From sequence record OP902294.1: a stretch of 64,000 nucleotides of DNA; one strand, given 5' to 3'. Source of the stretch: Staphylococcus phage BSwM-KMM1. The position numbers and the translations under genes were made by a program. The notes under the pieces are model-generated. The model was not told the origin of the DNA and did not search any database. It saw only the letters and a program-made list of their open reading frames with translations. This document shows positions 887 through 14,225 of the stretch, one piece after another. Positions within the stretch are counted from its first letter, which is position 1; every line of letters begins with the position of its first letter.

Positions 887-985
887 AATGTATTACCTCC
901 TAATTGATTATATACTTAGTATAAAGGATAATAATTAGAATATCAATAGTTTTATGTAAAAAAGAGAAAGAATATTATTCTTCCT

Positions 986-1270
986 CTATTCTCTATAGTC
1001 ATCATATATTTCTAGGTAAGGTGAAAATGGTGAGTCACCTCTAGTATTGATAATAACTTCACCTTCATGTTTACTTATCTCTGTAAGCTCTTCTAGGCTA
1101 TTAATTTCTACACACCATCGTTCTAGTGTAAAGGGATTACCTTTTTGGTCTACAAGTTCTAGTTTCTTTATATAGGCACCCTCTATAGGCTTTTTATTAA
1201 TGGTGCTTGTTCTGTCTATAAAAATTCCATTAGTTTTCCTCCTTATATTCTTTATAACTTTTAATAACAA
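986..1270 (-). CDS. hypothetical protein
   Basis: 94-aa ORF. Confidence 0.5.
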   Translation of the reverse strand: MLLKVIKNIRRKTNGIFIDRTSTINKKPIEGAYIKKLELVDQKGNPFTLERWCVEINSLEELTEISKHEGEVIINTRGDSPFSPYLEIYDDYRE

Positions 1271-1712
1271 TCTTACAGATACCTCTATTAACAGCTAAAA
1301 ACAATAAAAATGATAACAGAGTTATAACTGCTCTAGTATCTCCTGTGAAAGGTAATACTTTAAATAGTAAAACACTTTCTAAAACACTTGTAGCTGTGAT
1401 AATTGTGAGATATAAGATAGATAATAAGTAATCCTTTAATTTTAGTTTAACAAAAGGTTTTTTATTATCTTGTGTTCTTGTTATACCGTATAGAATTATA
1501 AACCATTCTACAGTTACGAGCATAGTTATAAAGTAATTATTTATGTCTAATGCATATAAACCATAAATGATACCCGCAGGAATACCTATAATGAATGCTA
1601 AAAATACAGAGAATATAATTAGCATTATAGGAAGAGCTACAAGGAATCCTAAGCCTTGTTTTGAGTACTCTAATGTATTCTTTCCTAAGGATTTAAAGAA
1701 TGTTTTATTCAT
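1230..1712 (-). CDS. membrane protein (about 4 TM helices)
   Basis: 160 aa, hydrophobic segments, RBS GGAGGTAGC. Confidence 0.55.
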   Translation of the reverse strand: MNKTFFKSLGKNTLEYSKQGLGFLVALPIMLIIFSVFLAFIIGIPAGIIYGLYALDINNYFITMLVTVEWFIILYGITRTQDNKKPFVKLKLKDYLLSILYLTIITATSVLESVLLFKVLPFTGDTRAVITLLSFLLFLAVNRGICKIVIKSYKEYKEEN

Positions 1713-2002
1713 CTGCTACCTCCTTATTTAGTATGCTATCCTTTCCTGTAAATCATCTAAAACTTCATAATATAGTATCTCCCCAAAACTTAAGTTTTCA
1801 TTCTTATACTTTTCTTTTATATACTCATAGTATTCTTTAGAACTATTCATAAATAATTCTCCTTTTTAAAATTTAATAACTACTTCTATTTTTACTTTAG
1901 GCTCTTTCTTTTCTGATAGTTGTTTTGCAATTAAATCTTTATTTTTTAATTCTTCTTGTATTTGATATAAAGACTTCATTCCTATTCCCCTCTATATTCT
2001 CT

Positions 2003-2497
2003 TTATTTAAACCTATTATATACGCAATGGACTCGAACATCTTCCATTACTTTTCCTAACAAATTCTGACCTTTCCAGTTAATTTCATCTAATATCTCAG
2101 GGTCATTTGCTTTAAGCCCTACTCCCCATATTTTATCATAAGGTGATGCTTCTACGAAATCTTTACGTAAATCTGTATCTAGTATTTTTTGTTTTAAGTG
2201 TGTAGTCATAAATTTATCTTTAACCACTTCTACCATAATGTCATATCTCACCTTATTCCATTGCTCTTCATTAAAATTACGAACTTTACGACCTAGACTT
2301 TTAGCATGGTTCGGATTCTTAGCATTTAATATTTCTCCTGCTATTTGCCAGTCTTTAAAATATTGAGCTTTACGCCACATAAAGGCTTGTTCTGAGTTAT
2401 TAAATGTTCTTCCTTTGTGTTTAAACTTTATTGGGTAAAAGTTAGAATAGATATCTTCCTTACCCCAAAACATAATGTATTCTTTAGTCTCTCTCAT
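2003..2497 (-). CDS. NADAR (YbiA-like) ADP-ribose-processing domain protein
   Basis: motifs SNFYP, F.NSEQAFMWRKAQYF, AKSLGRKV, EQWNKVRYDIM and DKIWGVGL match the NADAR/DUF1768 fold. Confidence 0.7.
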   Translation of the reverse strand: MRETKEYIMFWGKEDIYSNFYPIKFKHKGRTFNNSEQAFMWRKAQYFKDWQIAGEILNAKNPNHAKSLGRKVRNFNEEQWNKVRYDIMVEVVKDKFMTTHLKQKILDTDLRKDFVEASPYDKIWGVGLKANDPEILDEINWKGQNLLGKVMEDVRVHCVYNRFK

Positions 2498-2645
2498 TTA
2501 TTCTTACCTCCTTATACATATTTATCTAAAGTACTAACCATTTTATTAAGTTGTTTTTGCTTCTCTATCTTTAATTGGTTTGATTTATCACATTCTTCTT
2601 TGTTTGATTCTCTGAACTCTCCTTTATACTCGATGTACTCATCTC

Positions 2646-2963
2646 TTAATTGAATAAGGGTTTTAAAAAATCATCATAAGTATTTGGTATACGTTTACTT
2701 ACATATCCCCTTAAATAACCTGCTAATAGACAAAGTTCAATATCATCATTACCATAACCTTCAAAAGAGTTGAGTTTAACAATAATTGTGAAAAAGTTTT
2801 CAAATTTAGGTGTTTTAAAATCAAAGTGTATAGTATGACCTTTACTATCCTTATCCTGACGATATGCAGGCTCTAAAGCTATAAAATTATCTTTATTAAG
2901 TTTATTTAATGTTTTTGTATCTTTGAATAATTCTAGTAATCTCCCTAAAGTTACTGTTTCCAT
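2646..2963 (-). CDS. hypothetical protein
   Basis: 105-aa ORF tightly packed upstream of NADAR. Confidence 0.5.
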   Translation of the reverse strand: METVTLGRLLELFKDTKTLNKLNKDNFIALEPAYRQDKDSKGHTIHFDFKTPKFENFFTIIVKLNSFEGYGNDDIELCLLAGYLRGYVSKRIPNTYDDFLKPLFN

Positions 2964-2965
2964 AC

Positions 2966-3676
2966 TTAATCCTCCTCCAATTTAATAAGTGGTAAATCTA
3001 TATCTCTAAATACAGCACCTACATCACATAGCAACATATCATTATGTTCTTCTACTTCTCCACTAATTGTAGGTGTGTGCCCGCATACGTGAATAAAACC
3101 ATCATTACGTGGTTGGAAATCTCTTGACCATATTAATTGGTCTTTGGTTTGGTTTTTAGCTTGTTTCCAACTAACCCCTCCTGAATGCGTAAACTCATAC
3201 TTACCTTGCTTATATATAGTAGCACAGTTATGCATTAGTATCTTAAACTTTCTATAGTCTTCAGACTCTTTGAATTCCTTAATTTCTGCAACGAATTTAT
3301 CGAAGTATTCTCTATAAAACTCATTTTGATTTAACTCAAAGCTCTTTAATGGTGTTGTGTCAATACCATATGACTCTAGTGTTTCTATACAGTATCTTGC
3401 AAACCATTCAACATTATATATGTCCAGTTTATCAATATTTTCTATACTATGCCAAAATGCATCATCATGGTTACCTAGTAATGGTATAATGTCATCATCG
3501 TTTGAGACTCTTTCAAAAACGTAATTAACTACCTCTCTAGATTTTTCACCTCTATCAATATAATCCCCTAAAAATACTATAACATCTCCAGGTTGTCTTT
3601 CCTTATCTATCTTATTCATAATTGTTATTAGTTTTTCATATTCTCCATGAATATCAGGTACTACATATATAGCCAT
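2966..3676 (-). CDS. Ser/Thr protein phosphatase (calcineurin-like metallophosphoesterase)
   Basis: motifs VVPDIHGEYEKL, GDYIDRG and GNHD; 236 aa. Confidence 0.8.
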   Translation of the reverse strand: MAIYVVPDIHGEYEKLITIMNKIDKERQPGDVIVFLGDYIDRGEKSREVVNYVFERVSNDDDIIPLLGNHDDAFWHSIENIDKLDIYNVEWFARYCIETLESYGIDTTPLKSFELNQNEFYREYFDKFVAEIKEFKESEDYRKFKILMHNCATIYKQGKYEFTHSGGVSWKQAKNQTKDQLIWSRDFQPRNDGFIHVCGHTPTISGEVEEHNDMLLCDVGAVFRDIDLPLIKLEED

Positions 3677-3697: not shown

Positions 3698-3732
3698 ATA
3701 ACTATCTTACCATACTTATTTATAAATGTCAA
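3698..3732 (-). promoter_or_regulatory. sigma-A type promoter for the phosphatase operon
   Basis: minus strand TTGACA, 17 nt, TAAGAT, then RBS AAGGAGGAG. Confidence 0.4.
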
Positions 3733-3762
3733 CAAAAAACACCTATTAATTAAAATAGGTGT
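3733..3762 (-). terminator. rho-independent terminator ending the tRNA transcript
   Basis: CACCTATT/AATAGGTG hairpin followed by U-run on the minus strand. Confidence 0.5.
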
Positions 3763-4020
3763 AGAAAGAACTCCTATATACATTAGAGTTCTCTAAATAA
3801 TCATTATGTAACGTGTGCCTTGAACTCATAAACTCCGGCACTCCCTAAGTTTTGGGAATAGTTTTGTTTACTTGAGGACATAATATAGCATCTGTAGCCT
3901 TATGTATAACATACCGACTAACCTGTTACTGTGGCATGTGTAGGCTCTAGAAACCCTAGTTTTTATATCTTAACCTTTCATTAGATATATCAGGTACTTT
4001 TAATATGTAATTATAGATAA

Positions 4021-4093
4021 TACTGGAAGGATTTGAACCTACGCCACAAAGACCACTGTCTCCTGCTCTACCAAACTGAGCTACATGTATTAT
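4021..4093 (-). tRNA. tRNA-like gene, anticodon arm aberrant or unresolved
   Basis: D-arm GCTCAGTTTGGTAGAGC and T-loop GGTTCAAATCC on minus strand; acceptor and anticodon stems imperfect, possibly from homopolymer errors. Confidence 0.4.
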
Positions 4094-4105
4094 CTATTAA
4101 TTTCA

Positions 4106-4197
4106 GTGGGAAAGTTGGTATCGAACCAACATTTTATCTCGGTGCATACCCAAGACGTGTAGAGTATACCTCTCTACTGCCTACCTAAGGTTCCCCA
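4106..4197 (-). tRNA. tRNA-like gene with long variable region, possibly Tyr-GUA
   Basis: acceptor TGGGGAA/TTTCCCA and T-arm GTTGG-TTCGATA-CCAAC; about 92 nt with extra hairpin; loop AGGTATA. Confidence 0.35.
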
Positions 4198-4341
4198 CTA
4201 TGTATTAGCTCACACCTACGTAAGGCAATGAGCTTAGTTATTTAGATACTGGAGTTGGAAGGGTATTACCACTCAGAATTAGCAGTCAGATACAAAGCCT
4301 CTGCCGGGCAACATACGGTATCTCTCGTACATCACTATTAC

Positions 4342-4370
4342 AGTATACCACAAAGTATATTCCGTGTCAA
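4342..4370 (-). promoter_or_regulatory. consensus sigma-A promoter driving the tRNA cluster transcript
   Basis: minus strand TTGACA, 17 nt, TATACT; TTAACTTGACA...TGGTATACTGTA shared with promoter at 25039-25067. Confidence 0.6.
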
Positions 4371-4409
4371 GTTAATTTATCAATTTAATATATAAATTCT
4401 CCCTATATA

Positions 4410-4788: not shown

Positions 4789-5370
4789 CTAGGTCGTCTC
4801 TTTTTCTATACTTACATTACTTCTCTTATTAGTTAAAACATCTACTGGCATATATTTTACTTTTGCAAAGTCTTTATAGCTGACCTGTAGATTATCTAAA
4901 TCATCTAATAATTCATTATAATAGTTTAAATGGTTATAGAACGTATAGAATTTAACTAAGTCTTTCCCTGTTAATTCTTGCTTTTTAAGAATACTATTTA
5001 TATTTCCCATTACTGAGTAAGCTAAAGTTTTAAAATTAGCTCTTACATAAGTCAGAAATATAAAATCATCATAAAATAAATCTAAAACTTCTTTATTGAA
5101 TCTAGTATTTTCAGCCTGCTCTAATTGAGCACACAAGTTTAGAACATTATCAAAACCACTTTTCAGTATTAGATTTATAAACCTCTCTACAGAATAGTAC
5201 CTTGACTCTTCTGTATGCTTACTAGACTTCTCACTATTACGGAAAATTGTGTCAGATAGGGGTTGAACTACTAAGCTCATATAATCCCTATCTGAGTGTT
5301 CATCTGCAGTACCTTGATAAGTACTGCCAAATTCTATTTTAGATAATAAAACACATTTTTCTAAATTCAT
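4789..5370 (-). CDS. hypothetical protein
   Basis: 193-aa ORF with RBS AAGGAGGTTAC. Confidence 0.55.
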   Translation of the reverse strand: MNLEKCVLLSKIEFGSTYQGTADEHSDRDYMSLVVQPLSDTIFRNSEKSSKHTEESRYYSVERFINLILKSGFDNVLNLCAQLEQAENTRFNKEVLDLFYDDFIFLTYVRANFKTLAYSVMGNINSILKKQELTGKDLVKFYTFYNHLNYYNELLDDLDNLQVSYKDFAKVKYMPVDVLTNKRSNVSIEKETT

Positions 5371-12173: not shown

Positions 12174-14225
12174 TTAGGCAACCTCCTTAAATTCTTCTTT
12201 ATTTATTTTCTTAATATCTTTTTCTAATGCTTCTTTTAATTCATTAGGTAATTTATAAGCACCAATTGATTGTTGTTGACCTAATACATAACCATTATCT
12301 GTAATACGTATTTCCACTGTAAACCATGAATTCTCTAAATCTTCTTCTAATCTTGCTAATAATATTAAACAGCTATTCTTCAGAATTCTATTAGCATATC
12401 CTCCAACACAATGAGATAACATTCTACCTTCATCTTTTAATTTACTTACAGTATCTGCAGGAAGGAATTTTACTTTCCTACCGTCCTTTAATTTATAAGT
12501 TTTATCAATTATTTTTTCTAACTTATTATCATACTTAGCTTTAAGTTCTGCATCATCTAATTGTTGTTGTATAGATTGCTTCTCATCAGTAACAATATCA
12601 TGCTCTAGCTTCAGTGAAAAAGGCGTTAAGTTAACACTATCTAATGTTCTATACCCTTCTCTGATTAGTATTGATAAATCCTGTAAATAGTCAAGGTAAT
12701 AACTATCTAATACGTGTCCTGTTATACGTTGTCTATCCTGGGCATCTACATCTAAATAGTGAGTCATCTTTTTGTAGTTAGCAAAAGATATAGATAATAT
12801 TTCATTTACAATAGGTTTTACTTTTAAAGCATCTGTAACATTTCTTACATCCTGAACCATTAAAAATGTATCATCAAATAGTTGATGTAAATTAACCTCA
12901 TTGTGTAAATGATTATAGTAATTGTATAAGGTATATGAAAATCTTAAGTAATTACCTTGTTCAAATTTATTTAAAGTTAATAATTTTTTATAAGTCTGTT
13001 TTGTAAGATTGAAAGCTTCATGAACTTTCCATTTAGGATTTTTAGGTATATTAAATAGTAATGAATTTCTTTCAAATAATCCAAATTCCTCTAAGTTATT
13101 TATTTTATCAATATTTTTAACAACCTCTGCTAAGGTAGTTAAGTAGTTAGAAGTTGCTTTTTCCCCTTCGAGTGTTCTATATTTATTTCCTCCATAATTT
13201 ACACTACTATATACATCAAAATCATCAGGGCACCAACTAGAAAATCTAAAATCATTATTTCTTAGTGTTTCATCAATTATTTTAACAATAACATATTTAC
13301 TTAAATTAGGTGTTGAGTAATTTTTTAAAATAACATTTAATAAAACATCTAAACTTAATTCATTTTTATACTCACTTTTACTAATATCGTCTTTGTATAG
13401 ATTTAAAGTTAGTTCTTTATTAACAAGGCTATCTGTTAAGAAAACTTTAACTTCCCCTGTTTTAACATCGAATGAACTTTTATTTTCTAAAACCCATTTA
13501 TTACCCATATTATATTTATTTCTGATATGTTTAACTTTAAGACCAAAGGATGAATTATTCTCAGTACCTGGATGCATGTACCAAGCACTGCTATACAATG
13601 ATTCTGACATTTCCTTATAATACTTACTAGAGCCTTTTTCTGTATCTTCATTCATATAAGAAGTAATAGATGATTTTATTAAACCGTACTTACCTTGGTC
13701 TAGAATATCCATGATATCATCATTTAAATTATCCGCTACTTCTCTATACTCATCTAATTGTCTAGACTCATACCCCCATAATCGGTTTTCATTTTCTAAT
13801 TCTTTAATTTTTTCTTCTACATAACCTTTAGATTTTATTTGTCTTCTTCTCTTACTACCATATAAAGGAAATTCTTTTCTTTCTTCTCTACTGGATTCAA
13901 TATATTCTTTGTAACCTCTTTCTTTATTTTCTTCAATTACACCTTCAACTAATTTCTCAACTGTTTCATAAGGATTACCTGAAAAGTTTGTTACTTCTTT
14001 ATTACCGCATAATGCTAAGAATAAATGTATTTCTGTGGCAGTATCAAAATTAAATATATTATGAATATCTCTGAATAATTCTTTAGAGCCTAAATTAATT
14101 ATATTATTTTTCTTCTTCTTAAGAAATACGTCTTCATCTCCAATGTAGATACAGCCTTTATTGACTTTAGGTAAATTAATAATTTCTTGTTCTGTTAATC
14201 CTTTTTGTTTATATGTTATTGCCAT
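12174..14225 (-). CDS. large hypothetical protein (683 aa) with a possible PcfJ-like C-terminal domain
   Basis: long uninterrupted ORF; C-terminal motif LSHCVGGYANRILKNSCLILLARLEED..WFTVEI looks like the PcfJ family as I recall it. Confidence 0.55.
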   Translation of the reverse strand: MAITYKQKGLTEQEIINLPKVNKGCIYIGDEDVFLKKKKNNIINLGSKELFRDIHNIFNFDTATEIHLFLALCGNKEVTNFSGNPYETVEKLVEGVIEENKERGYKEYIESSREERKEFPLYGSKRRRQIKSKGYVEEKIKELENENRLWGYESRQLDEYREVADNLNDDIMDILDQGKYGLIKSSITSYMNEDTEKGSSKYYKEMSESLYSSAWYMHPGTENNSSFGLKVKHIRNKYNMGNKWVLENKSSFDVKTGEVKVFLTDSLVNKELTLNLYKDDISKSEYKNELSLDVLLNVILKNYSTPNLSKYVIVKIIDETLRNNDFRFSSWCPDDFDVYSSVNYGGNKYRTLEGEKATSNYLTTLAEVVKNIDKINNLEEFGLFERNSLLFNIPKNPKWKVHEAFNLTKQTYKKLLTLNKFEQGNYLRFSYTLYNYYNHLHNEVNLHQLFDDTFLMVQDVRNVTDALKVKPIVNEILSISFANYKKMTHYLDVDAQDRQRITGHVLDSYYLDYLQDLSILIREGYRTLDSVNLTPFSLKLEHDIVTDEKQSIQQQLDDAELKAKYDNKLEKIIDKTYKLKDGRKVKFLPADTVSKLKDEGRMLSHCVGGYANRILKNSCLILLARLEEDLENSWFTVEIRITDNGYVLGQQQSIGAYKLPNELKEALEKDIKKINKEEFKEVA

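What the first reader, a model, noticed from the sequence alone, without database searches (positions are those of the whole stretch)
2003..3676. Early-gene pair NADAR hydrolase plus Ser/Thr phosphatase: candidate counter-defence module
NADAR-domain proteins are known to remove ADP-ribose from guanine in DNA and thereby reverse DarT-type toxins. A lambda-PPase-like phosphatase two genes away could reverse host kinase-based abortive-infection signalling such as Stk2-type responses. Both sit in the first operon after the terminal repeat and are driven by a strong promoter. That position is typical for anti-defence genes.
Basis: inference. Interest (0 to 1): 0.55.

Follow-up and report, generated by a model that had tools for sequence, protein, structure and literature searches.

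The report
Phage NADAR hydrolase and phosphatase genes
A Kayvirus-type Staphylococcus phage carries a NADAR enzyme that probably strips ADP-ribose off DNA/RNA bases and a lambda-type phosphatase of unknown target; both genes are real and already annotated in relatives, but nothing shows they act as a pair or are early genes.

Summary
The window is a Twortvirinae (Kayvirus-like) Staphylococcus phage. Both genes exist, on the minus strand. The NADAR lies at 2003-2497 (Pfam E=2.7e-39) and a lambda-NinI-like PPP-family metallophosphatase at 2966-3676. One frameshifted gene separates them. A sigma-70-type promoter (3732-3704) precedes the phosphatase. In phage K the orthologous unit (TU14, gp030-gp025) is classed as middle, not early.

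The NADAR belongs to the stand-alone NADAR family. Its closest solved structure is 8BAU. All ADP-ribose-binding and catalytic residues are invariant among homologues. It is not the T4 AdfN type or the DarG1 type. Phage NADARs that neutralise DarT1 (AdfN) were published in 2025, so the idea is known but untested for Gram-positive phages.

The phosphatase keeps every lambda-phosphatase catalytic residue. Its substrate cannot be assigned, and the Stk2 link has no support.

The "module" is not supported. Only 3 of 80 diverse NADAR-bearing viral loci have the phosphatase nearby, and all three are Staphylococcus phages. The phosphatase also occurs without the NADAR, and the slot between them varies. 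In other Herelleviridae the NADAR sits among RNA-repair genes, which gives a rival reading. I found no DarT-type partner in staphylococci.

Verdict: ordinary, a new member of a known kind. Interest 0.3.

The parts
3739..3762 (-). Intrinsic-terminator-like hairpin that ends the upstream (tRNA-like/lncRNA) unit
   Evidence: 9-bp stem plus T-run. It sits at the same place as the phage K terminator at 12672-12692.
3704..3732 (-). Sigma-70-type promoter of the transcription unit (TTGACA, 17 nt, TG-extended TAAGAT)
   Evidence: It is homologous to phage K promoter 14 'TTGACT...TGGTAAGAT', which is assigned to gp030 and classed as middle.
2966..3676 (-). Lambda-NinI-like PPP-family binuclear metallophosphoesterase, 236 aa, with a helical insert at about residues 69-150
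   Evidence: PF00149 E=1.7e-18. phrog_246. AF2 pLDDT 96.1. Foldseek top hit is lambda phosphatase 1G5B, E=1.2e-10. D8, H10, D38, R42, N69, H70, H164, R185 and H200 align with lambda D20, H22, D49, R53, N75, H76, H139, R162 and H186.
2512..2963 (-). Frameshifted copy of a conserved 150-aa Twortvirinae gene (phrog_20305). The called ORF105 is 2646-2963, and the C-terminal 48 codons are readable in another frame down to 2512.
   Evidence: All 27 near-full-length homologues are 150-158 aa (26 of them 150 aa; one further hit is a 66-aa fragment). The 1-nt deletion in a T7 run at 2665-2670 is seen against L008 and L168. There is no Pfam hit and no significant PDB fold match.
2003..2497 (-). Stand-alone-type NADAR domain protein, 164 aa; predicted ADP-ribosyl-nucleobase N-glycohydrolase
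   Evidence: PF08719 E=2.7e-39. 8BAU matches at E=3.3e-23 with the single sequence and 1.2e-37 with the profile. YbiA 2B3W matches at 4.4e-5 and 1e-15. E36, K43, R70, W80, K95, E116, D121 and W124 are invariant in 26 homologues.
1866..1979 (-). Small 37-codon ORF with a Shine-Dalgarno sequence, downstream of the NADAR in the same unit
   Evidence: Read directly from the sequence. Not investigated further.
1230..1712 (-). 160-aa predicted membrane protein (phrog_3619), orthologue of phage K gp025, distal gene of the same unit
   Evidence: 81% identical to the phage K copy.
963..987 (-). Terminator-like hairpin that probably ends the unit, after ORF 986-1270

Best explanation
The region is part of one host-RNA-polymerase-driven, middle-phase transcription unit of a Kayvirus-like phage. 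It runs from the promoter at 3732-3704 to the terminator at 987-963.

The unit carries two enzymes that are inherited separately.

(a) A stand-alone-family NADAR. It most likely hydrolyses the N-glycosidic bond between ADP-ribose and guanine, and possibly cytosine, in single-stranded DNA or RNA. It would thereby undo base ADP-ribosylation of phage nucleic acid by a host ADP-ribosyltransferase, in the manner of an AdfN-like 'orphan antitoxin'.

(b) A lambda-NinI-like PPP-family metallophosphoesterase with a complete catalytic centre. Its physiological substrate is unknown; it could be phosphoprotein, 2',3'-cyclic/3'-phosphate RNA ends, or Np4N.

The two are neighbours because of lineage-specific synteny in a variable accessory-gene arm, not because they form a dedicated two-component system.

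Shown here: the domains, the conserved catalytic residues, the fold, the promoter homology, and the distribution. Inferred: enzymatic activity, the in-vivo target, and any counter-defence role.
For: NADAR:
- Pfam, NCBIfam and PDB matches.
- The residues that bind ADP-ribose in 8BAU (E43, K50, R79, W89, E125, D130, W133; PMC11543638) align with E36, K43, R70, W80, E116, D121 and W124, which are invariant in 26 homologues.
- Every NADAR family tested in vitro removes G-ADPr from DNA and RNA. Stand-alone and YbiA types also remove C-ADPr.
- Phage NADARs from non-T4 clades (Bas32/33, Bas60) neutralise DarT1 and rescue phages.
- The window protein is 29% identical (E=1e-11) to the Bas33 protein and 37% identical to the phAPEC8 homologue.

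Phosphatase:
-.

Timing and operon structure:
-.

Independence of the two genes:
- Only 3 of 80 IMG/VR NADAR loci (the Staphylococcus ones) and 3 of 80 bacterial NADAR loci have a phosphatase homologue nearby.
- The phosphatase occurs without a NADAR in PG-2021_29 and in an S. epidermidis SPbeta-like phage.
- Among Staphylococcus phage records, 263 hold the phosphatase and 233 hold the NADAR.
- The content between the two genes is 0, 1 or 2 unrelated small genes.
- Against phage K the NADAR is 91% identical and the phosphatase 64.5%.
Against: - No guanine- or cytosine-specific ADP-ribosyltransferase defence has been shown in staphylococci.
- S. aureus defence surveys that used PADLOC do not mention DarTG (weak evidence).
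- The single staphylococcal plasmid NADAR has no recognisable ART neighbour.
- The protein passes the NCBIfam equivalog-domain model that is named for the riboflavin-intermediate N-glycosidase.
- E. coli YbiA and T4 NADAR are active in vitro yet fail to protect cells from DarT1 on their own. In-vitro-type activity therefore does not guarantee a defence-related role.
- In Listeria, Lactobacillus and Bacillus phages the NADAR lies among RNA-repair or macro-domain genes. This could mean a different physiological substrate and a real functional tie to a phosphatase.
Confidence: 0.55

Rival explanations
1. First reader's model. The pair is a coordinated early counter-defence module. The NADAR reverses DarT-type DNA ADP-ribosylation, and the phosphatase reverses phosphorylation by an Stk2-type abortive-infection kinase.
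For: NADARs do reverse DarT1, and phage NADARs are proven anti-DarTG1 factors. The phosphatase is lambda-phosphatase-like with all catalytic residues present. Kinase-based defences exist: Stk2 in staphylococci and KKP in Gram-negatives. The two genes are co-transcribed from one sigma-70-type promoter.
Against: The orthologous unit is classed as middle, not early. The genes are not co-inherited outside Staphylococcus Twortvirinae, and the phosphatase occurs alone. I found no paper linking any phage phosphatase to Stk2 or KKP evasion. No DarT was found in staphylococci in what could be searched. The phosphatase is no closer to protein phosphatases than to ApaH or to the Pnkp phosphatase domain.
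Confidence: 0.12
2. RNA-damage-reversal toolkit. The phosphatase is an end-healing enzyme (2',3'-cyclic phosphodiesterase / 3'-phosphatase, like the Pnkp phosphatase domain and lambda phosphatase itself). It would prepare RNA cut by host ribonucleases (anticodon nucleases, toxin RNases, Csm6) for the phage RNA ligase. The NADAR would act on RNA as well, either removing base ADP-ribosylation or clearing ADP-ribose by-products.
For: In Lactobacillus phage Iacchus, the homologous phosphatase domain is fused into an AAA_33 kinase-Metallophos-Rnl1 ligase protein 2.7 kb downstream of a NADAR. In Listeria LP-125, the NADAR lies between RtcB and an Rnl2-type ligase, with HAD and metallophosphoesterase genes nearby. 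The window phosphatase hits phrog_8238 'RNA ligase' (E=8e-14) and TIGR04075 Pnkp weakly. The CthPnkp phosphatase domain 4J6O is the 4th structural hit. An AAA_33 kinase is a recurrent NADAR neighbour, in 18 of 80 loci. Phage K encodes an RNA ligase. tRNA-like elements and a nucleotidyltransferase lie just upstream in the window. NADARs remove G- and C-ADPr from RNA.
Against: The RNA ligase is about 15 kb away in phage K. No kinase or ligase domain is fused here. NADARs were inactive on phosphate-end ADP-ribosylated RNA. RtcB and RNA ligase each occurred near a NADAR in only 1 of 80 viral loci. The Listeria lambda-type phosphatase (A511 gp28) is not near that phage's NADAR cluster.
Confidence: 0.2
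3. Metabolic or small-molecule role. The NADAR acts as a YbiA-like N-glycosidase on riboflavin intermediates or on soluble NAD/ADP-ribose-derived molecules. The phosphatase acts as an ApaH/PrpE-like Np4N hydrolase. Neither touches macromolecules.
For: TIGR02464 'riboflavin biosynthesis intermediates N-glycosidase' is passed with 188.6 bits. The best NCBIfam hit of the phosphatase is symmetrical Ap4A hydrolase, and ApaH structures rank high. Nudix (19 of 80 viral loci) and NrtR-like Nudix regulators (14 of 80 bacterial loci) recur next to NADAR homologues. Iyer et al. 2022 argue that phage NADARs mainly target soluble ADP-ribose derivatives.
Against: All ApaH, PrpE and PrpA/B equivalog scores are far below their cutoffs (52 vs 176, 25 vs 340, 33 vs 332). 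The NADAR is much closer to the DNA/RNA-active 8BAU protein than to YbiA. Phages have no obvious need for riboflavin damage control. Johannesman et al. place most non-T4 phage NADARs outside the housekeeping YbiA branch.
Confidence: 0.1

Closest known systems
AdfN (anti-DarT factor NADAR) of coliphages: T4 gp30.3, Bas32/Bas33, Bas60-62 (Johannesman et al. 2025, PMC11825919)
   Same: Single-domain orphan NADAR in a large lytic phage. It lacks the DarG1 N-terminal extension, and the catalytic Glu and Lys are conserved (numbered E36 and K43 here, as in T4). It is 29% identical (E=1e-11) to the Bas33 protein and 37% identical to the NADAR of phAPEC8, an E. coli myovirus of about 150 kb.
   Different: There is no detectable similarity to T4 gp30.3 (BLASTP E=1.9). 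It has Glu where the T4 type has His. The host is Gram-positive, with no known DarT1. Anti-DarT activity is untested.
Stand-alone NADAR family: Phytophthora nicotianae NADAR (PDB 8BAU), S. coelicolor SCO5665
   Same: It is the best solved relative (E=3.3e-23, or 1.2e-37 with the profile). All ADP-ribose-contacting residues align. This family removes both G-ADPr and C-ADPr from DNA and RNA.
   Different: The phage protein is shorter, at 164 aa against a 189-aa chain, and lacks a 4-residue insert near the N-terminus. Its activity has not been measured.
E. coli YbiA (PDB 2B3W) / TIGR02464 riboflavin-intermediate N-glycosidase
   Same: It passes the TIGR02464 model (188.6 bits) and carries the YbiA-type Glu (E116).
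   Different: It is far more distant than 8BAU (E=4.4e-5 against 3.3e-23). A phage context gives no link to riboflavin synthesis.
DarG1 (DarT1-associated NADAR antitoxin, e.g. E. coli C7, G. lovleyi 8BAT)
   Same: Same superfamily and the same expected chemistry.
   Different: 8BAT was not detected even with the profile at E<=0.01. The window protein has Glu, not Asp, at the key position. It has no N-terminal extension of about 50 residues: the catalytic Glu is residue 36 here and residue 88 in E. coli C7. There is no adjacent DarT.
Bacteriophage lambda NinI / lambda protein phosphatase (PDB 1G5B)
   Same: It is the top structural match (E=1.2e-10, TM about 0.6). All metal-binding and phosphate-binding residues are conserved, and the size is similar.
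   Different: Identity is only about 20-29%. The window protein has an extra helical insert between the GNHD and HSGG motifs. The 'NGG' motif common in the family reads 'RYC' here. The in-vivo role of lambda NinI is itself unknown (my own knowledge).
Pnkp-type RNA-repair phosphatase domain (C. thermocellum Pnkp 4J6O; Lactobacillus phage Iacchus gp086)
   Same: Homologous phosphatase domain (Foldseek E=7.8e-9; phrog_8238 E=8e-14; tblastn 31% identity over 123 aa to Iacchus gp086).
   Different: It stands alone, with no kinase or ligase domain. The TIGR04075 score is 29 against a cutoff of 750.
Phage K TU14 (gp030 metallophosphatase, gp029, gp028 YbiA-like, gp027, gp026, gp025)
   Same: Orthologous unit with the same promoter and terminator layout. 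RefSeq records of Kayvirus and Baoshanvirus already name the genes 'NADAR family protein' and 'NinI-like serine-threonine phosphatase'.
   Different: The window lacks gp029 and gp027 and carries the frameshifted 150-aa gene instead. The phosphatase is only 64.5% identical, while the NADAR is 91% identical.

Membership tests
NADAR superfamily (PF08719) | Significant match to the domain model over its full length | tested here: met
   E=2.7e-39, 135.5 bits against a cutoff of 35.1, model positions 2-159 of 163.
NADAR superfamily (PF08719) | Conserved catalytic Glu and Lys (E43/K50 in 8BAU; E88/K95 in E. coli C7) and ADP-ribose-binding Arg/Trp/Asp | tested here: met
   E36, K43, R70, W80, D121 and W124 align to 8BAU and are invariant in 26 homologues.
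[quoted passage not shown] | Closest to characterised stand-alone members rather than to YbiA, gp30.3 or DarG1 | tested here: met
   8BAU at 1.2e-37 against YbiA at 1e-15. 8BAT was not found. T4 gp30.3 gave E=1.9. No formal phylogeny was made.
T4-type phage NADAR (AdfN-T4 / Pfam Phage_30_3) | His replacing the conserved Glu (E125 of 8BAU); sequence similarity to gp30.3 | tested here: not met
   The window has E116 where T4 has His. BLASTP E=1.9.
DarG1 antitoxin | Asp at the catalytic position (D171 in E. coli C7), a basic N-terminal extension, and a gene adjacent to DarT1 | tested here: not met
   Glu at that position. Only about 9 residues precede the first conserved strand. The neighbours are the frameshifted 150-aa gene and small ORFs, with no ART.
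AdfN functional class (anti-DarTG1 counter-defence) | Neutralises DarT1 toxicity or rescues phage plating through ADP-ribosylglycohydrolase activity | not testable with these tools
   Only homology to the tested Bas33 (= Bas32) protein, 29% identity, E=1e-11.
YbiA-type riboflavin-intermediate N-glycosidase (TIGR02464) | Score above the curated cutoff | tested here: met
   188.6 bits against 73.7. The model is an equivalog_domain, and the stand-alone 8BAU-like proteins evidently fall under it too. This does not settle the substrate.
PPP-family / lambda-phosphatase-like metallophosphoesterase | Motifs GDxHG, GDxxDRG and GNH[ED], plus the downstream His, Arg and His ligands | tested here: met
   D8-I-H10-G, G37-D38-Y-I-D41-R42-G, G68-N69-H70-D, H164, R185 and H200 are invariant or nearly so in 41 homologues and align with lambda NinI.
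PPP-family / lambda-phosphatase-like metallophosphoesterase | Fold | tested here: met
   AF2 pLDDT 96.1. The Foldseek top hit is 1G5B at E=1.2e-10, followed by Rhilph2, the CthPnkp phosphatase domain, ApaH and PP1/PP5.
ApaH / PrpE Ap4A hydrolases; PrpA/PrpB protein phosphatases; Pnkp | NCBIfam equivalog score above the cutoff | tested here: not met
   52.1 against 176, 31.6 against 222.85, 25.1 against 340, 33.2 against 332, 26.7 against 326, and 29.2 against 750.
Two-gene functional module (conserved gene pair) | Co-occurrence and adjacency across unrelated lineages | tested here: not met
   3 of 80 viral loci and 3 of 80 bacterial NADAR loci have the phosphatase nearby. The phosphatase occurs without the NADAR in two staphylococcal phages. 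The spacer is variable.
Early (host-takeover) gene class of Kayvirus | Expression maximum within 10 min in RNA-seq | tested here: not met
   The orthologues gp028 and gp030 and their promoter are classed as middle in phage K. There are no expression data for this phage itself.

The most novel reading that the evidence does not exclude
In Herelleviridae the NADAR and the lambda-type phosphatase may be two arms of one nucleic-acid damage-reversal system. The phosphatase would heal 2',3'-cyclic/3'-phosphate RNA ends for the phage RNA ligase. The NADAR would remove ribosyl-type base adducts (ADP-ribose, or the product of a DS-32-like phosphoribosyltransferase) from phage RNA or DNA. Together they would counter a staphylococcal ribosyl-transfer or RNase-based defence that has not yet been described.
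Probability: 0.15. Interest if true: 0.6.

Novelty: new member of a known kind. Interest (0 to 1): 0.3.

Why it matters
Kayviruses are the main therapeutic phages against S. aureus, so knowing which accessory genes widen or narrow their host range has practical value.

If the NADAR is an active ADP-ribosyl-base hydrolase, two things would follow. Staphylococci or their mobile elements probably deploy a nucleic-acid ADP-ribosylating defence that has not yet been catalogued. The AdfN principle would also extend to Gram-positive phages.

The phosphatase is a widespread Herelleviridae gene of unknown function. Assigning its substrate would also shed light on the long-unexplained lambda NinI phosphatase.

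As it stands the finding adds no new kind of system. Both genes are already named in RefSeq, and the counter-defence idea for phage NADARs is published.

Tried and rejected
1. Function of the gene between the two enzymes. It has no Pfam or NCBIfam hit. The AF2 model of the full-length homologue has pLDDT 76. Foldseek against the PDB gave nothing at E<=0.001. It remains unassigned.
2. Looking for an ART or DarT partner.
   - Neighbour clustering in 80 bacterial NADAR loci gave mostly overlapping-frame noise, plus NrtR-like Nudix proteins and prophage genes.
   - The only staphylococcal plasmid NADAR (S. epidermidis pHD75-1_1) has no recognisable ART nearby.
Presence of DarT in staphylococci was therefore not tested directly.
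3. Literature on the Kayvirus NADAR or phosphatase. Full-text 'NADAR' hits with Staphylococcus were author names. The transcriptome reviews do not mention these genes.
4. Supplements of the AdfN paper were not held, so the Bas60 protein could not be retrieved. The comparison used Bas33 and phAPEC8 instead.
5. Rfam and ARAGORN on the upstream non-coding stretch showed only weak tRNA-like elements.
It should be ignored. The residue mapping rests on rows 1-4, which are the window, lambda NinI, EF19G and phage K.
7. The genome-wide promoter scan is not enriched over shuffles (54 against 49.8). The promoter call rests on homology to the phage K promoter, not on the scan.
Full report
**What the window is.**
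Megablast of the first 8 kb finds 278 phage records. Of these, 251 are Staphylococcus phages. The best matches are the PG-2021 series at 96% and SAP23 at 94% (genus Kayvirus). Phage K itself matches at only about 80%. The annotated relatives show the end of the long terminal repeat (TreT/TreU genes on the plus strand), followed by a long block of minus-strand genes. By the SAP23 annotation the repeat ends near window position 390.

**Checking the observation.**
- All ORFs of the finding are on the minus strand.
- ORF 2003-2497 (164 aa) is a full-length NADAR domain (PF08719 E=2.7e-39; TIGR02464 188.6 bits; phrog_1017).
- ORF 2966-3676 (236 aa) is a calcineurin-like phosphoesterase (PF00149 E=1.7e-18; phrog_246 'NinI-like serine-threonine phosphatase' E=2e-61).
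- Between them lies ORF105 (2646-2963), so the genes are one gene apart, not two.
- All 27 near-full-length database homologues of ORF105 are 150-158 aa (26 of them 150 aa). The missing 48 codons are readable in another frame down to 2512.
- Alignment with two close relatives shows a one-base deletion in a T7 run at 2665-2670. The gene is therefore frameshifted here, or mis-sequenced.
- Directly upstream of the phosphatase lie a terminator-like hairpin (3762-3739) and a promoter-like site, TTGACA-17-TGgTAAGAT (3732-3704).
- The next minus-strand terminators are at 987-963 and 571-542.

**Promoter, transcription unit and timing.**
- The promoter is the homologue of phage K promoter 14 ('TTGACT...TGGTAAGAT', assigned to gp030).
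- In the phage K RNA-seq study that promoter and the whole unit TU14 are classed as middle, not early. TU14 comprises gp030 phosphatase, gp029, gp028 'N-glycosidase YbiA-like', gp027, gp026 and gp025 membrane protein (PMC9241854 supplement).
- A one-gene unit (602-886) lies between this unit and the repeat.
- The sequence facts are thus confirmed, but 'early', 'two genes away' and 'first operon' are not.

**The NADAR.**
- The nearest solved structure is the Phytophthora nicotianae NADAR bound to ADP-ribose (8BAU), at E=3.3e-23 with the single sequence and 1.2e-37 with a profile of 26 homologues.
- E. coli YbiA (2B3W) is much further away (4.4e-5 and 1e-15). The DarG1-type G. lovleyi NADAR (8BAT) is not detected.
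- The residues that Schuller et al. describe as contacting ADP-ribose or needed for catalysis are E43, K50, R79, W89, E125, D130 and W133 in 8BAU. They align with E36, K43, R70, W80, E116, D121 and W124, all invariant among 26 homologues of 45-93% identity.
- Position 116 is Glu. DarG1 proteins have Asp there and T4-type phage NADARs have His.
- The protein has no BLAST similarity to T4 gp30.3 (E=1.9). It is 29% identical (E=1e-11) to the NADAR of Bas33 and 37% identical to that of phAPEC8.
- It also matches a PADLOC candidate-defence component (PDC-M42C, 116 bits). It matches only weakly the NADAR of the validated NADAR+phosphoribosyltransferase system DS-32 (49.8 bits against a cutoff of 240).

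**What is known about such enzymes.**
- All four NADAR families remove ADP-ribose from guanine in DNA and RNA in vitro, and none removes it from thymine.
- Stand-alone and YbiA types also remove it from cytosine.
- NADARs do not act on phosphate-end ADP-ribosylated RNA.
- In cells, only some NADARs protect against DarT1.
- Johannesman et al. (2025) showed that T4 gp30.3 and the unrelated NADARs of Bas32/33 and Bas60-62 are counter-defence factors against DarTG1. They named them AdfN. They noted that most other phage NADARs cluster with non-YbiA, non-DarG1 bacterial NADARs.
- That paper does not mention staphylococcal phages, and I found no paper on the Kayvirus protein.
- RefSeq already labels the orthologues 'NADAR family protein'.

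**The phosphatase.**
- A 41-sequence alignment shows invariant D8, G11, G37, D38, D41, R42, G68, N69, H70, H164, G199, H200 and D218, and near-invariant H10, W183 and R185.
- Aligned with lambda NinI, these correspond to D20, H22, D49, R53, N75, H76, H139, R162 and H186. The role of those lambda residues is from my own knowledge of the 1G5B literature.
- The AF2 model is confident (pLDDT 96.1).
- Its best PDB match is lambda phosphatase (E=1.2e-10, TM about 0.6). Next come Rhizobiales-like phosphatase 2, the phosphatase domain of C. thermocellum Pnkp, ApaH, and eukaryotic PP1/PP5.
- No NCBIfam equivalog (ApaH, PrpE, PrpA/B, Pnkp) comes near its cutoff.
- Close homologues are confined to Staphylococcus and Mammaliicoccus phages. 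Identity then drops to about 35%.
- More distant copies occur in Enterococcus, Listeria and Lactobacillus Herelleviridae.
- The fold and the active site are therefore established, but the substrate is not.

**Is it a module?**
- Among 80 diverse IMG/VR loci with a NADAR homologue (±8 kb), only the three Staphylococcus phages have the phosphatase nearby. The recurrent neighbours are a RecD-like helicase (27), Nudix (19), an AAA_33 kinase (18) and an HD protein (15).
- Among 80 bacterial loci the phosphatase appears 3 times.
- A Twortvirinae phage of S. epidermidis (PG-2021_29) and an S. epidermidis SPbeta-like siphovirus carry the phosphatase (66-70% identity) with no NADAR within 5-8 kb.
- Counts in Staphylococcus phage records are 263 for the phosphatase and 233 for the NADAR.
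- The interval between the two genes holds nothing (SAP23, S24), the 150-aa gene (this window, PG-2021_10), gp029 (phage K), or both (MCE-2014-like).
- Against phage K the NADAR is 91% identical and the phosphatase only 64.5%.
- All this points to two independent accessory genes in a recombination-prone arm.

**A different thread.**
- In Listeria phage LP-125 the NADAR lies between an RtcB ligase and an Rnl2-type RNA ligase, with HAD and metallophosphoesterase genes close by.
- In Lactobacillus phage Iacchus a protein combines AAA_33 kinase, a phosphatase domain homologous to the window's, and an Rnl1 ligase. It lies 2.7 kb downstream of the NADAR.
- In Bacillus phage FADO a macro-domain protein is two genes away.
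- In Enterococcus phage EF19G the phosphatase is 3.3 kb upstream on the same strand.
- Phage K has an RNA ligase about 15 kb away.
- This supports an RNA-repair reading as a serious rival. It is weakened by the rarity of these neighbours in the wider sample and by the separate location of the Listeria lambda-type phosphatase.

**The host side.**
- No Staphylococcus genome is among the best 80 of at least 600 bacterial NADAR loci.
- One S. epidermidis plasmid carries an orphan NADAR (43% identity) among small unknown genes, without a recognisable ART.
- S. aureus studies that used PADLOC do not mention DarTG. A 2026 study of MRSA defences against myoviruses names AbiK and Gabija, not ADP-ribosylation or kinases.
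- Kinase-based defences (Stk2, KKP) exist, but I found no report of a phage phosphatase countering them.

**Conclusion.**
The most likely picture (confidence about 0.55) is a middle-phase unit with two independently inherited enzymes. One is an AdfN-like stand-alone NADAR that reverses base ADP-ribosylation of phage nucleic acid. The other is a lambda-NinI-like phosphatase of unknown substrate. This is a new member of a known kind: the genes are already annotated and the concept is published, while the staphylococcal target is unknown. Interest 0.3.

Noticed in passing
window 2512-2963 (-), frameshift at 2665-2670: The gene between the phosphatase and the NADAR is a 150-aa conserved Twortvirinae gene (phrog_20305) broken by a T7->T6 change in a homopolymer. 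It could be a real pseudogene, a sequencing error, or a slippage site. The full-length protein models as an alpha/beta domain plus a 54-residue C-terminal helix, with no known fold match.
   Followed up: yes
window 3763-4409 (-): A 650-nt non-coding stretch with raised G+C (0.37) and its own consensus-like promoter (4370-4342). Rfam calls a tRNA at 4019-4090 (33.9 bits), but ARAGORN finds nothing at its default threshold. At a relaxed threshold ARAGORN gives a tRNA with a 2-base anticodon and a second tRNA-Pro-like element at 4105-4184. The sequence is unrelated to the tRNA-Met that phage K has at this map position. Phage K's abundant lncRNA 'lnc002' maps to the equivalent place. The fold z-score is -2.2.
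   Followed up: partly
L169 (Lactobacillus phage Iacchus) 7794-10157: gp086, annotated 'RNA ligase', is a three-domain protein: AAA_33 kinase, metallophosphatase and Rnl1 ligase. This is a Pnkp-like RNA-repair enzyme. It lies 2.7 kb downstream of that phage's NADAR.
   Followed up: partly
L004 (Listeria phage LP-125) 2463-7840: A cluster of RtcB ligase, NADAR, Rnl2-type RNA ligase, HAD-like protein and metallophosphoesterase. It looks like an RNA-repair island with a NADAR embedded in it.
   Followed up: partly
window 2966-3676 versus 2003-2497, compared with phage K (L007): Divergence is strongly unequal within one transcription unit. The phosphatase is 64.5% identical to the phage K copy and the NADAR 91%. 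This suggests allele replacement by recombination, or faster evolution of the phosphatase.
   Followed up: partly
window 4789-5370 (-): A 193-aa protein of phrog_3464 ('nucleotidyltransferase') with no Pfam hit lies just upstream of the tRNA-like region. It is conserved at 87-95% in Kayvirus relatives.
   Followed up: no
L178 (S. epidermidis plasmid pHD75-1_1) 3075-3560: A 64-kb 'plasmid' made mostly of small hypothetical genes carries an orphan NADAR that is 43% identical to the phage protein. It may be a phage-plasmid.
   Followed up: partly
window 1230-1712 (-): The distal gene of the unit encodes a 160-aa multi-pass membrane protein. It has a weak match to the VraH peptide-resistance family (22.6 bits, below the cutoff).
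   Followed up: no
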